Shown here in pieces: positions 5,532 to 53,300 of a DNA stretch of 64,000 bases. Every line of letters starts with the position of its first letter. Positions within the stretch are counted from its first letter, which is position 1. The position numbers and the translations under genes are program-made. The stretch is from Vermamoeba vermiformis (taxonomy: Eukaryota), in NCBI GenBank assembly GCA_045837725.1, contig JBEWZL010000227.1, positions 248,001-312,000 on the forward strand, given 5' to 3'. The notes under the pieces were generated by a model. It ran no database searches. It had not been told where the DNA came from and saw only the letters and a program-made list of their open reading frames with translations.

Positions 5532-6877
5532 TTAAATGAAGCACAAAACCGTCATCACGCCATAAAGCAAGCCTGGCAAAATGGTGGTAGACTTTGAAAC
5601 AGACTGCGTAATGTTGGTCGAGGCGGCGATGAAGGCGTATTGGCCGTGCTTGGAGCTTCAGAGATGGTGGAGTGACATTCGACGAGTCATATCGATTGCC
5701 GCGCACTTCAACTCCTGTTGGCGTCGGTGTGATGTTTTTGATGGTCGAGTTGGGATCGTAGCCTTGCAACAAGTCCTCGTCAACCTCCGTGCTGTTGCGC
5801 TTGTAATCTTCAACGACGGATCTGTAAACGGAAATCAACGTCAGAACAATGTCGCTAAAAAATGACATGTTGACACGTGTCACTTGAATACTTGCTTTAC
5901 TGCGTCTGAAGATGTGGGCTCCTGTGCGGCCGTCGTTTCATCTAATAACTCATCAGACACGTACTCTTACATCAATAATAAACTTACTAGCAGGCGCAAC
6001 AGTGACCGTGATGTCGTATCTGTTGCGATAGATCACTCTCTTAACGGGTACAGATCCACCTGTCTGAACTACGTCTGCCGTCAAACGAGAAGCCGAGAGA
6101 TTGTACCTGTTTAATATAGGCTTTAGTAAATATCTTGGCTTGAAGACTAATCATTTAATGCTTAATTTAATCATGCAAACCTTCTAGCAAAATTGTCAGC
6201 CAGCACGTAACCGTCGGAAATGTACCCGATCGAAGTCACATCTGCGACGAACCCTGGGGCTTTTATCGTGATTAAAGCATTAGTACCAGCTCTTTAGTAT
6301 AATATTATGACTCACAAGTGGGACACAAGATGGCAGTGATGTTCGTCAAATCGACGGTCAAGTTGTACGAGCCCAGGACCCAGTTGAACTGCGTCACGGT
6401 GGTAGGTATTGTAGTAATATAGAGGGAGACAGGGTACGTCAAAGTTGAGCCAACAGGGAACGTTTGAGGTCGGTCAGTCTTGTCACGTGACGTGAGTTTA
6501 GGCGTGATGAAATTTTTCGAAAAATACTTACTGCGAGGTCACTAGGCGTGAAGTAGTTCTTGTAGCCATGCTCCACAATCTGGTCAATTCCGTCTTGATT
6601 GATAAAGCTGAAGTGGAGATTGTAACCGTTGTTCGATGTTTCAACACAATCGAGCACAGGTACTACATTCGGCAAGCCGCAGACTCCTTCGAAGCCAATC
6701 AGGCCATTCATGCACCGACAATTTGCGTCACAGTTGGTACCTCCGTCACATTCCTCGTTGAGTTCGAGTTGACCGTTGCCACAGATCCCGGATTGTGCAC
6801 GAGCCTCTGGATTGATTCTTAGTTGACTTACTTAGAGCAACTAAAAATGCTGCACTTAAGATTAATAATATGCGCAT
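5532..6877 (-). pseudogene. Shorter paralog of the 282-3281 surface protein, frameshifted
   Basis: Near-identical exons (CGNGQLELNEECDGG, GLPNVVPVLDCVETSNNGYNLHFSFIN, DYKRNSTEVDEDLLQGYDP) and its own signal exon MRILLILSAAFLVAL. The GPI-like tail STTILPGLLYGVMTVLCFI* is reached only through two frame changes near 5620-5665. Confidence 0.6.
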
Positions 6878-7089: not shown

Positions 7090-8843
7090 TTAAAGGAGGT
7101 CTCTGATCAATCGGTATGTGTCCCGTACAGGTGACAGCTCAAACGTTACCAAATATGGTAATTGACTCTCGAGTATCTTAGCCAACCCTTTGAGTGCCTT
7201 TGGTGAGTTGAAATATACTTCGATCAAATTTGTCAATCTCGTTAAGGCAGATCCGTCTGCATCTTTGCTTCGTACAGACAGAAAAGTCAATCGCGTCAAA
7301 TTCAGTGAAATTGAATCGAGTTCGTGTGCCGTAATAAGACGCGGTAAAATCAGTTCTTCTAACTTTTGCAAACTTGTAATATGTTTGACGTGTCTTCGCG
7401 TTGATTTTTTGTAAGCAAAACGCGCGTTATTTAAAATGTGCAATTGAACGAGGTTCGTGAGCGATGCCAAATAAGGCAAGTCCATGCAATTGTCATCTAA
7501 TATAGTCAAACGTGTCAAACGTGTCAACACTGTGATAGTTCTAACCAGGTCAGCTTCCATAAGATACCGTGTCAGAAACAACTTTTCCAAATTAGGAAAG
7601 TCGTTGAAATTAATTTCGGCTGCAGTACGAAGTGATCGCACGTTGGTGAGACTTCCTAAAAAGGTAATTTTGTTTGTTTGGAACGCTTCTATTGACGTCA
7701 AGTTGTCTGCAGGTACTTTTGCGGTGCCAAGTGTTAAGAGTATATCACGTAGTGTGGTGTACCGTGACAGATCCAAATAAGGAATATTGTAAGCGTGAAG
7801 CTTTGTCAGGCGACTGCCATCGAGCGGTAAAATTGGTGAAGAGAAACCGTGAAGTGTTAAACTTTCTAAATTTGGTAAGCCGCTCATGAAAGTTTCGACA
7901 GCTTCCGAGTCTGGTGTTACGTCTCTTATAGTTAGTTCTCGTAATCTCGTTAATGAGCTCCAAGCTGATAGATCTGGGACGCCTTGCGTCCATTTGATAG
8001 AATTCATGCTTATTGTTAGCTTCGTCAATTTTGAATATTGCAAAACATTCTCTTGTTTGACATCGGCGTTCTCGATCTGCAAAGATTCCAAATTTGGCAT
8101 CGACGGTAGATGTACTAAATTGGGCATGCCAGTATTAGTGATTTGCAAATCTTTCAATGCTGTTAATCTTTGTAAATGAACCTCACGTCCAATATTCATT
8201 ATTAATCTTGTGAGATTTGTGCAATATTCGTCAAAGGATCCACCGTTGGCAGATCGATAAGACAAATTAAATTCTAGATCGAGCAACTGTGATGCAGACG
8301 GTTGGTGCAGCATATCAATATTAGCTTCGCTTAATTTGGTAAGATTAGGCGGCAGTGTCATTGCTGTGCTAATACTTGGGTAAAATCTAACGGATTCAAG
8401 TCTTGTAAACATTGCCAAAGGAAAAAGAATGTACGGCTGTCTTGGCAATCTATTGAACTTAGTTACATCTAATTCAGTGATGTTCTCCAACGTGGATAAT
8501 TCTTCATAAATTCTTCGAATATTTGCTGGCGTGGTTGTGGCTTTTGGTATTTTTGTAAATCTGACACTGAGCCGATCTGATTTTGAGCGCCTCAACGTTC
8601 TTACTATACTATCAAAATCCTTCATTTGCATTGATTTGATGACAGCTATGCGTTTCTTGAGCATGCGAGCGATTGTTGAACAAGTTTCGCGGCAGATGTG
8701 CCAAGTCGTCACATCCGTGAACGAAAAAATGTGCAGTATTATTTCAAGCGGTAAAACATCCTGCAGGAAATGTTAATATTTTAAACGAATAAATATTAAA
8801 TAAAAATTGTCTAATTATTTTCCAAACCAATTTAGCTTACCAT
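7090..8843 (-). CDS. F-box + leucine-rich repeat protein (paralog of 3621-5370)
   Basis: ATG-only exon at 8841-8843. Exon 2 opens DVLPLEIILHIFSFTDVTTWHICRETCSTIARMLKK, near-identical to the first copy, followed by LRRs. Confidence 0.85.
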
Positions 8844-50300: not shown

Positions 50301-53300
50301 TCTCGTCATGATGAGCAAACCTGTCACTTTTGATGCGGGCAACACGCCGTACATGTACGGGCTAATATGTAGCATGAAAGCCGGTGACAACATTTATTTT
50401 GTCTGCAGACGTGAGTACCTTTTGAAGTCGCTTCAAGAACGGCACTAAGATTTGAACCTTTTTAGGAAGGTCAAGACACGGACTGACTAATAAGGAGAAG
50501 TACGACATCACTGTGTGGAAGTTGGATCTGTCGCCACAACAGCTCGAGACATGGGCTGTCACTAGAATTATTCCGCCAGTACCTAAATCAGCCCCTGCCG
50601 TACGTTTTTAAAATTATTCTAGTTAACTTAAATATATTGTTGACACGACATTTAGCCTGAAGAAAGAGAACAGTCCGCGATGCAAGTTGAAACTGCACAA
50701 GACCTATTTGAAGAAGCGGCACTTTCGATCCAAGAGTTTGGACTACCCGTATGTCAAATAGCAGCTCAATCGCATGCACATGTATTAACGTTAATTCTCG
50801 TTTAGGGCGTAGAAATTACCACAAACAACAATAAGATTGTATTTATTGGCCGTCAAAACCTGCTCGAATTCAATCCGGGTGAGTTGACACGTGTCAAATT
50901 AACTCGTTACCGGAGCTAATCTCCATTATGCTACAGCGACAGGTGAAGCCCGAAAGATTGAACCTTCAGGCAAGTTCCCGAGCACCAAGTCTTATTCAAC
51001 TACATCTGTTGAAAACCAAATCGTCACTTTTGGTGGCTGGAACGAGCACGAGCAACAATTTGACGTGTACATCTACGAGCAAGGTCAGTTAGTATCCACC
51101 ACTACCCACCATCAGGCACTTACATGTTGATTAGATCGAGCGATGTGGTACAAGCCACATGTCACGGGCACTGTCCCTCGCCCGCGCAACAATAACGCCA
51201 CTGCATTTGCTGAGAACCAGGGCAAGATGATGTTTATTGGAGGCTGGAACGGACGTAACTTCATCGATGACATTGACGTCCTGTCAATACGTAAGTACTT
51301 TCACCATCTTCAAGAAATTGTTCGGTCGCGAAGAAATTGATATCCAACGGGTCGCGAGTGTTAAAATCAGGGCGAGCAAAATCAACAAGGCACTCATGGT
51401 CTAGGGGCATGATGTGCGCCATGACACGCTGTCTTTCCCTCTCGCAAAATCAACAAGGCACTCATGGTCTAGGGGCATGATGTGCGCCATGACATGCTGT
51501 CATTCGGTCCGACCAAAATCAACAAGGCACTCATGGTCTAGGGGCATGATGTGTGCCATGACACGCTGTCTTTCTGTCTGAGCTAAATCAACAAGGCACT
51601 CATGGTCTAGGGGCATGATGTCCGCCTGCCACGCGGGCGACCCGGGTTCGATTCCCGGTGAGTGCATTCTTTTTTGCCTTTTTGCGCTGTAGCTTCTTCT
51701 CTCGTTGTTCGTTTATTTACTAAATTGAGCAAGGTGAAAATAATTGGTTTTATGTGACACTTCTAGACAGATTAACGTGGTGTTACCAGAATACCCTTTT
51801 ATTAGCTTGGAAGGGTTAGGGTGCACACATGCAAGGAACAGCGTTTAAATTTTCATTTTAATTTTGCACTGCGTATGTGCCCTTCCAAGCAGCCCGTAGA
51901 TGAAAATTCATTTGGCAAGCAAGCACAGTTGCTGATGCTCGTGGGTTCTGCCGCGACTTGCGTGAAGTTAATCAAGTGCGCTGTGTGGAAAATGAGCGTT
52001 TTTTTCTTCTTGAAAATGCCAGGCTAGTCTCATATCATCGCGTCGTTTTGTTCCTTGCCGCTCGACCCAACAACGGCCTAATAGCATAGTTGGTTATTGC
52101 GCCCGCCTAGTAAGCGGGAGGTCCTCGGTTCGAATCCGAGTTAGGCCAGTTTCTTTTTTGCTTGTAGGCGGGGACTATCATTCGCTTCTTAGTATTTGTT
52201 GTTTTTGGACTTCAGTTGATCTGACAACTTTTTTTTGACAGAGACCTTGGTCCCTGAAGAATTCGGCATGTACTTGAACAGTTCGGAATTGTTCGATGTG
52301 ACGCTGCAAATTCAAAATCAGAGCGTTAAATGTCACAAAGCGATCTTGTATTGTCGATCAAAATACTTCAAGGCTTTGCTCGAGAAGGATCCGGATGTCA
52401 CGCACCTGACCATCGACAACGTGAAGTTCCCGTTATTCAATGCCATGGTGCGTATTATTAATTAATTACAATTATCACATTATGATCATTCTTGCTTATT
52501 GTTGTTCTGCAGTTGAATTACTTGTACACGGATCTGATCGACACGACGCAAGTGACTGAAGAGCTCGTGCACGAGTTTATCGAACTGTGCGAGACCTATG
52601 CACACGAGCACGTGCCTAGGATCACCGAAGAACTGCTTTTGACACGTGTCCAACAGTCAAGCACGATGAGCGATGACCTGAGTCAGATCATCAATCAAAA
52701 ATTGTTTTCTGACGTCGAGTTCGTTATTGATGGACAAACGTATTACGCGCACAAGGTAACCTTATTAACATCATTTACGGCCAATTTCCCATTCGAAAAA
52801 AATTACTTTGATCTAATAATTTTTTCACGGCTCGATGAAGAGCATTGCGTTAACTTTCCTAATTAGGCAATCATATGCGCACGCTCAGAGTACTTTAGAG
52901 GCATGTGCCTCGGTAACTTGCGCGAGTCCAAGCAGCGTGTGATTGAACTGAGCGATGTCACAAGTGCTACTTGGCCCGCGATCATGCAATGGCTCTATTG
53001 CAAACGACCTGATTGGAACGCAATTACAGCACACGCGAGCGAGGTAAGTAGTTATATACTTTAAATACAAATGATGTTCTTTGCGCCTATTTATCACACA
53101 AAACTCTATCTGCTTTTGCCGGAGATATATCGTTTCCGTGCTTTGTTTCTAGTCTATTAATACGTGCCCCCGATATGACACTTTTGACACGTTGTTTGAT
53201 CGTCGGAATATTCAATCTGTCAAATTGAGTATCTCAAATACGGCAATTTGTTTCAATATGAGTCTCATACTAAGGTCATTTTGATGCTATCCGATATTAA

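What the first reader, a model, noticed from the sequence alone, without database searches (positions are those of the whole stretch)
51377..51666. Tandem array of tRNA-Gly 5' fragments ending in the intact tRNA gene
Seen: three 68-69 bp units repeat the 11-nt leader and first 26 nt (including the A-box) of tRNA-Gly. Each then switches, at the start of the anticodon stem, to a non-tRNA 18-mer (GCGCCATGACACGCTGTC) and a 12-14 nt more variable linker (TTTCCCTCTCGC / ATTCGGTCCGACC / TTTCTGTCTGAGCT). The core differs at only about 2 positions while the linkers differ at many, which simple recent slippage would not predict. The 18-mer can fold back on the tRNA part (CATGG..CCATG). Inference: either (a) a Pol III array of tRNA-derived small RNAs, with several A-boxes sharing the downstream B-box, or (b) scars of repeated tRNA-targeted integration with target duplication.
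Basis: partly seen in the sequence, partly recalled or inferred. Interest (0 to 1): 0.8.

Follow-up and report, generated by a model that had tools for sequence, protein, structure and literature searches.

The report
Spreading tRNA-Gly promoter-end repeat
In one single-celled eukaryote, a 69-base piece made of the front end of a glycine tRNA gene plus a promoter-like flank has been stacked up to three times in front of several copies of that gene, most likely spread by ordinary recombination between the copies rather than by a transposon or as a new RNA gene.

Summary
The array is real and not unique. The 69-bp unit (12-nt leader + tRNA-Gly nt 1-26 + 31-nt segment X) stands before 5 of 13 tRNA-Gly(GCC) genes of this genome (8 intact, 2 decayed units), before 0 of 69 other tRNA genes examined, and in two independent runs. 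It is absent from 14 of 14 stretches of a syntenic relative, including orthologs of 4 filled loci. Near-identical paralogs differ by exactly one or two units. The 'conserved core, variable linker' pattern is the ordinary profile of tRNA 5' flanks here (the tRNA-Lys(CTT) flanks show it and share ATGACRCG), so X behaves as the promoter flank of the gene behind it. The 18-mer is not wholly non-tRNA: it starts with 11/13 identity to the anticodon arm. No covariation, no terminator between units, no longer element and no enzyme was found; expression is untested. Flanks of these genes show concerted evolution. Best reading (0.6): one microhomology-guided duplication, spread and stacked by ectopic recombination among tRNA-Gly copies. 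A dedicated target-restoring element (0.17) or a small-RNA array (0.1) remains open.

The parts
51291..52241 (+). 951-nt GT-AG intron of a protein gene; holds the array and both tRNA genes
   Evidence: joint 51290-52242 in contigs of runs X6 and X14; joined exons read open
51346..51377 (+). native 5' flank of the locus, now in front of the first unit
   Evidence: 22 of 31 identical to the native flank of the unlinked locus L003
51378..51415 (+). distal leader (12 nt) + tRNA-Gly nt 1-26 with A box; read as the original 5' end of the gene
   Evidence: role inferred
51416..51445 (+). segment X copy 1 (5 variable nt, core 51421-51437, 8-nt linker; 9 nt in runs X5 and X6)
51446..51483 (+). second leader + tRNA-Gly nt 1-26
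51484..51514 (+). segment X copy 2 (core 51489-51505, two variant positions)
51515..51552 (+). third leader + tRNA-Gly nt 1-26
51553..51583 (+). segment X copy 3 (core 51558-51574): positions -43 to -13 of the intact gene, its present 5' flank
51584..51595 (+). leader of the intact gene
   Evidence: same leader in the relative
51596..51666 (+). intact tRNA-Gly(GCC)
   Evidence: ARAGORN; Rfam RF00005 58 bits
51670..51683 (+). T runs (6 and 5): first Pol III terminator-like signal after the array
52075..52148 (+). tRNA-Thr(AGT) in the same intron, no unit in front

Best explanation
The mobile piece is best phased as [X, a 31-nt tRNA 5' promoter flank] + [leader] + [tRNA-Gly nt 1-26]. It arose once in this lineage, probably by a template switch between the anticodon arm (nt 27-39) and the look-alike start of X. 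It then moved between tRNA-Gly(GCC) genes by ordinary ectopic recombination or gene conversion: the 38-nt leader + nt 1-26 of a recipient pairs with an upstream copy of a donor, copies X + leader + 5' part, and rejoins the intact 3' part. Each event leaves a whole tRNA with a new flank and pushes the old 5' end upstream; recombination between the direct repeats removes units exactly. The X next to the gene works as its upstream flank, so its core is kept while the -21 to -13 linker mutates fast; displaced units are passengers that decay. Shown: distribution, filled/empty pairs, flank-like conservation profile, concerted evolution of flanks. Inferred: the origin, the repair route, proximal growth, promoter role of X, and neutrality.
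For: 5 of 13 loci filled with 1-3 units; all 21 matches to the 5' 25-mer are the 13 genes and 8 units, none with a mismatch; 10 of 12 core matches lie in arrays, the reversed control gives 7. L002 and L009 are 98.8% alike over 1501 nt and differ by two units; L003 and L006 by one. Relative: 0 of 14 stretches, with empty orthologs of L002, L003, L004, L005. Five tRNA-Lys(CTT) flanks vary at 1 of 24 columns from -42 to -19, 9 of 10 from -18 to -9, 0 of 8 in the leader; X varies by 2 changes in 17 core columns, 16 in 9 linker columns. ATGACRCG stands at -41 before 6 of 65 other tRNA genes, all Lys(CTT), and at -38 in X. Flank -45..-15: paralogs within a species 22-31 of 31 identical (6 pairs), orthologs between species 9-18 of 31 (5 pairs). 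Inverted duplications on C304 and C282 break at tRNA-Gly genes. Literature: ectopic conversion among tRNA paralogs (PMC4981973, passages); the 20 nt upstream of active tRNA genes are hypermutable, peak 10-15 nt upstream (PMC6130373, passages). In L004 the middle 5' piece (14 of 38 changed) is more decayed than the X behind it (1 of 17; p 0.02) and like the X before it (4 of 17; p 0.37), as proximal growth predicts.
Against: No locus has X as its only, native flank, in this genome or in 7 loci of the relative, so the donor is not seen. No two of the 10 X copies are identical (nearest distance 3-8 of 31) while nt 1-26 show 0 of 208 changes; this needs hypermutation of the flank or continued conversion of the 38-nt piece, neither measured here, and the hypermutation paper covers animals and a plant, not protists. 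The L004 decay lies in a CpG-poor patch (o/e 0.24), so a mutation gradient could mimic polarity; proximal versus distal core changes (1/85 versus 7/85) give only p 0.06. The ATGACRCG match comes from one Lys family and is also half of a palindrome found 2793 times in the genome. Pure drift does not obviously explain 5 of 13 loci.
Confidence: 0.6

Rival explanations
1. Non-autonomous, target-restoring element: a dedicated recombinase or transposase recognises tRNA-Gly (and the TGACA-N3-TGTC inverted repeat) and inserts X + leader + 5' part, or these are scars of a larger element that did so.
For: Fixed length (31 nt in all 10 copies once the strain-specific deletion is set aside), exact junction at nt 26/27, strict target (0 of 69 other tRNA genes), arms of the inverted repeat invariant in 10 of 10 own-genome copies, no two copies identical. 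Dada elements do enter the anticodon arm of tRNA-Gly-GCC and can replace target bases (PMC8869645).
Against: No longer element at any of 21 target matches; core absent elsewhere beyond chance, from 16 stretches around retroelements and CpG-poor regions other than the L004 array itself, from viral contigs next to a tRNA (0 of 13 hits; tRNA 21-mer 0 hits) and from prokaryote genomes. No tyrosine recombinase (0 of 3 candidates, controls 14 of 14). Duplicated part is 38 nt, not the 6-7 bp of Dada. In run X6 one arm is mutated.
Confidence: 0.17
2. Functional Pol III array: distal A boxes share the B box and yield a long leader that is cut into tRNA-Gly 5'-fragment-like small RNAs.
For: 0 of 208 changes in the tRNA part of 8 intact units; leaders and A boxes intact; no 4-T stop between units, so a read-through precursor is possible; a 151-nt contig with a unit is in run X6, whose contigs are spliced.
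Against: No covariation (0 of 15 pairs; 0 of 7); folding no better than shuffles; no Rfam match but the two tRNAs; 8 of 13 loci and the relative do without; distal units decay, including an A-box deletion in X6; one unit has lost its leader (L005). The X6 contig includes 64 nt upstream of the leader at the same depth as the mRNA contig (3.3 versus 3.4), as intron RNA or DNA would.
Confidence: 0.1
3. Decayed whole-gene tandem copies: each unit is a truncated tRNA-Gly pseudogene whose 3' part eroded into X.
For: X start resembles nt 27-39 (p 1.4e-4); whole X consensus against nt 27-71 scores above shuffles (p 0.02) and above all 69 other flanks.
Against: The second half of X shows no T-arm likeness (p 0.67; best single copy 0.054). 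Independent local decay cannot give the same junction and length at 5 loci; as an origin for the first unit only it merges with the best explanation.
Confidence: 0.08

Closest known systems
Concerted evolution of dispersed tRNA genes by ectopic gene conversion (S. pombe tRNA-Ser; reviewed in PMC4981973, passages seen)
   Same: Sequence moves between unlinked isoacceptor genes; paralogs stay identical; here flanks too.
   Different: Here the converted tract is a heterologous 69-bp insertion that restores the gene and stacks up to three deep; no description of this turned up in the listings.
Dada DNA transposons (PMC3706591 parts 1-3 of 4; PMC8869645 parts 1-3 of 5)
   Same: Strict tRNA target, anticodon-arm site used by Dada-tV in tRNA-Gly-GCC, tandem insertions known.
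   Different: Dada are 4.7-11 kb, make 6-7 bp duplications and split the gene; here 38 nt are repeated, the gene stays whole and there is no ORF.
tRNA-gene-targeted retrotransposons Ty3, DGLT-A, TRE5, NLTR-A (PMC5911963, passages seen)
   Same: Sit at a fixed place 5' of tRNA genes in compact genomes, in the TFIIIB zone.
   Different: They insert upstream without copying the tRNA, take many tRNA types, and carry ORFs, LTRs or oligo(A) tails; none here.
Prokaryotic tRNA-island att scars and the repeats behind E. coli tyrT (recalled; one search listed no paper on them)
   Same: Short tandem units that repeat one end of a tRNA gene and leave the gene whole.
   Different: Those repeat the 3' end downstream and involve integrases; this repeats the 5' end upstream in a eukaryote and no integrase was found.
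tRNA-derived SINE heads and 5' tRNA fragments (recalled)
   Same: Begin with a tRNA 5' part and A box.
   Different: No B box, tail or dispersed copy; expression not shown.

Membership tests
Dada transposon | 6-7 bp target duplication with 5' and 3' gene halves on either side | tested here: not met
   38 nt repeated, whole gene downstream at 5 of 5 loci
Dada transposon | kb-size element with DDE transposase | tested here: inconclusive
   no long insert at 21 of 21 target matches; CxC4 proxy search empty but rang in no control (the link of CxC4 to Dada is recalled); the paper's protein alignment could not be read
tRNA-targeted retrotransposon (Ty3/DGLT-A/TRE5 type) | ORFs, LTR or oligo(A) tail, variable 5' truncation | tested here: not met
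   fixed 31 nt, no tail; 55 RT matches exist in the genome but X is not in the 13 stretches fetched around them
tRNA-targeted retrotransposon (Ty3/DGLT-A/TRE5 type) | insertion beside many tRNA types through TFIIIB | tested here: not met
   5 of 13 Gly(GCC) genes, 0 of 69 other genes of 25 ARAGORN types
Tyrosine-recombinase integrative element | integrase in the genome or element | tested here: not met
   PF00589 no match, 14 of 14 controls ring; exon-wise search of a possibly incomplete assembly
tRNA-derived SINE | A and B box, dispersed copies away from tRNA genes | tested here: not met
   no B box; no copy of the 5' part outside tRNA-Gly loci
Structured Pol III small RNA | conserved structure with covariation | tested here: not met
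   only 8 closely related sequences, so power is low
Structured Pol III small RNA | discrete transcript from each unit | tested here: inconclusive
   run X21 is a divergent strain, 23 reads laid, 22 partial, no start or end pile-up; X6 contig cannot show ends
Ectopic conversion among tRNA paralogs | paralogs within a species more alike than orthologs between species | tested here: met
   flank identity 22-31 of 31 versus 9-18 of 31
Ectopic conversion among tRNA paralogs | non-reciprocal transfer seen directly, dependent on host recombination | not testable with these tools
   needs strain pedigrees or a reporter

The most novel reading that the evidence does not exclude
A 69-bp promoter cassette that homes into tRNA-Gly genes with a bias in its favour (a dedicated enzyme, or conversion drive), swaps the gene's upstream control flank while restoring the tRNA, and leaves a polar, CRISPR-like record of past events: a minimal target-restoring element in a eukaryote, possibly wiring tRNA-Gly output to the factor that binds the genome's dominant TGACA palindrome.
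Probability: 0.2. Interest if true: 0.75.

Novelty: new variant of a known kind. Interest (0 to 1): 0.38.

Why it matters
If the best reading holds, this is a small natural assay of ectopic conversion among dispersed tRNA genes: a marked insertion whose gains, exact losses and order can be read in strains, together with a within-locus contrast between an active flank and displaced copies that tests transcription-associated mutagenesis in a protist. It also warns that 'conserved core, variable spacer' beside a tRNA need not mean a new RNA or a CRISPR-like system. If spread is biased or enzyme-driven, it would be a new minimal class of target-restoring element.

Tried and rejected
Assembly artefact: rejected; units differ from each other, occur at 5 loci and in runs X5 and X6. 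Recent local slippage: rejected; within-locus distance equals between-locus distance. Fold-back of the 18-mer on the tRNA part: no covariation, broken in 3 of 56 cells. T-arm or B-box remnant in the linker: p 0.67. Split, permuted or non-canonical-intron tRNA: considered; no conserved helix at the junction was predicted; not tested further. Core as terminus of a larger element: 2 of 12 matches lie outside arrays, against 7 for the control; L043 is inside a coding stretch, L047 has no tRNA. Viral attP: 13 hits of the 17-mer, none with a tRNA within 500 nt; 0 hits for the tRNA 21-mer. Prokaryote genomes: 0 hits for the junction. TGACA-N3-TGTCA occurs 106 times against 27 for the control, far below the N2 palindrome (2793 against 4), so the core is not the canonical site. 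The gene's Pfam content was not obtained; 'kelch' and 'BTB' are my reading of the translation. Paper searches; only five papers were opened, and the supplements of the two Dada papers were not read and may hold similar junctions.

Full report
Observation. The window is part of a 43-Mb eukaryote assembly. Three head-to-tail units of 68, 69 and 69 nt precede an intact tRNA-Gly(GCC) at 51596-51666. Each holds a 12-nt leader, tRNA nt 1-26 and a segment X of 31 nt (5 variable nt, a 17-nt core with the inverted repeat TGACA-N3-TGTC, a 9-nt linker). The 18-mer is far above chance (3 against 0.05). Array, tRNA-Gly and a tRNA-Thr lie in a 951-nt GT-AG intron, shown by spliced contigs of two runs.

Distribution in the genome. 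A DNA search gave 13 tRNA-Gly(GCC) loci. Five carry units: the window (3), L002 (2), L003 (1), L005 (1) and L004 (1 intact, 2 decayed). A 25-mer of the tRNA 5' end, with up to 3 mismatches allowed, matches 21 places, all exact: the 13 genes and the 8 intact units. The 17-nt core with up to 1 mismatch matches 12 places, 10 of them in the arrays; the reversed control matches 7. So there is no free copy and no longer element at the target in this assembly. Of 69 other tRNA genes of 25 ARAGORN types fetched (a sample, not the full set), none has a partial copy within 400 nt. L002 and L009 are 98.8% alike over 1501 nt of flank and differ by two whole units; L003 and L006 differ by one. Gain or exact loss cannot be told apart from one genome.

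Other samples. A metagenome scan with the tRNA 21-mer gave 14 stretches (about 7 distinct loci) of a relative with the same tRNA and leader; none has a unit. Flank similarity of 67-85% makes them orthologs of L002/L009, L003, L004 (downstream side only), L005, L006 and L007/L008; the window's own locus has no ortholog among them. The unit is therefore most simply a gain in this lineage. Of 4 runs laid (of 24 listed), X5 and X6 each hold a contig over 51376-51461 with 3-4 other letters; both make unit 1 69 nt long, and in X6 the unit has an A-box deletion, two core changes and a further linker remnant upstream. X14 has no piece over the units. The RNA run X21 is a divergent strain (9 differences in exon reads; 23 reads laid, 22 partly) and says nothing on expression.

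Why the core is conserved. Among the 8 intact units nt 1-26 show 0 of 208 changes; the minimal number of changes is 5 in the first 5 columns of X, 2 in 17 core columns and 16 in 9 linker columns (clustering p 5e-5, relatedness not modelled). Counted from the gene behind it, the core is at -38 to -22 and the linker at -21 to -13. Ordinary flanks show the same profile: five tRNA-Lys(CTT) flanks vary at 1 of 24 columns from -42 to -19, at 9 of 10 from -18 to -9 and at none in the leader; three other families vary mostly in the same zone. That Lys family begins with ATGACRCG at -41 (6 of 65 flanks), the motif that X has at -38. In animals and Arabidopsis the 20 nt before active tRNA genes are the most mutable zone (PMC6130373, abstract and passages). 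Structure tests agree: folding is no better than shuffles and no pair covaries, though 8 close sequences give little power.

Origin and spread. The first 14 nt of X align to tRNA nt 27-39 at 11 identities (p 1.4e-4); the rest of X shows no T-arm likeness (p 0.67). This microhomology explains a junction at nt 26/27, whether X began as a flank or as an eroded arm. After the first event, 38 nt of perfect homology on each side of X let ordinary recombination copy it into other tRNA-Gly genes. Such exchange is evident here: flanks at -45 to -15 are 22-31 of 31 identical between paralogs within a species and 9-18 of 31 between orthologs, and inverted duplications on C304 and C282 end at tRNA-Gly genes. 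Ectopic conversion among tRNA paralogs is established (PMC4981973, passages). X copies are as far apart within a locus as between loci, and 8 of 10 have a nearest neighbour (ties included) at another locus. In L004 decay steps fit a unit phased as X + leader + 5' part added next to the gene, but that locus borders a CpG-poor patch, so the test is weak.

Against this reading. No donor locus with X as sole flank was found. No two X copies are identical, while the tRNA part is invariant, which needs flank hypermutation or continued conversion that I could not measure. Length and junction are as exact as an enzyme would make them, and 5 of 13 loci is a high share for drift. Searches for a partner were negative: no tyrosine recombinase; 55 reverse transcriptase matches, with no X in the 13 stretches fetched around them; an uninformative CxC4 search; nothing in viral contigs or prokaryote genomes. 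These searches do not exclude a lost or unassembled element.

Comparison. It works like a target-restoring insertion, but fails membership of Dada (6-7 bp duplication, split gene, 4.7-11 kb; PMC3706591 parts 1-3 of 4 and PMC8869645 parts 1-3 of 5 read; supplements not read), of tRNA-targeted retrotransposons (PMC5911963, passages) and of SINEs. The listings showed no description of 5'-fragment arrays before tRNA genes; the library is partial. The bacterial 3'-end repeats named as an analogue are recalled, not read.

Verdict. Real, lineage-specific, multi-locus and polymorphic; best read as a promoter-end duplication that travels among tRNA-Gly paralogs by host recombination (0.6). New variant of a known kind; interest 0.38. 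The novel case, biased or enzyme-driven homing of a 69-bp cassette, keeps about 0.2.

Noticed in passing
window 620, 3562, 5871, 6956, 10693, 14758, 40267, 48793, 49989, 50044, 50885, 63516; whole genome: The palindrome TGACACGTGTCA occurs 12 times in the window and 2793 times in the genome against 4 for the reversed control, often with extra TGACA half-sites and once about 45 nt before an ATG; 0 in 30 kb of the relative's loci. Probably a dominant promoter motif or a highly iterated palindrome; the paper search listed nothing relevant.
   Followed up: partly
L115:1296-1567, 5977-6392, 8690-8780 (G000:C56 17.3-24.8 kb): Tandem 77-82-nt units: palindrome TATGGCCGGCCATA, about 20 variable nt, a B-box-like GGTTCGAATCC hairpin and a T run; repeat-spacer layout in a CpG-poor region. 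Related B-box repeats on C12, C30, C64, C78, C48, C73, C84. Could be a small-RNA array or transposon ends; looks stranger than the present finding.
   Followed up: partly
L010-L013 (G000:C73), L004 upstream, patches in L137-L139, L146: Sharp CpG-poor domains (o/e 0.1-0.4) beside CpG-rich DNA (o/e above 1), suggesting regional methylation; four tRNA-Gly genes with a variant leader lie in one.
   Followed up: no
G000:C304 19-116 kb (L151-L159) and C282 234-240 kb (L160): Inverted duplications of 90-99% identity whose ends fall at tRNA-Gly genes; divergent tRNA pairs flank unique spacers of 5-6 kb.
   Followed up: partly
L014-L022, L003, window 51291: Many tRNA genes start 50-130 nt behind a GTAAG-type 5' splice site, that is at the start of introns; shown by spliced contigs only for the window's locus.
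   Followed up: no
tRNA 5' flanks genome-wide (46 representative flanks): A layered upstream layout: T-rich -50 to -40, GC-rich -39 to -30, A/T tract -29 to -23, CAA at -7 to -1, with family-specific cores; suggests upstream Pol III elements in this lineage.
   Followed up: partly
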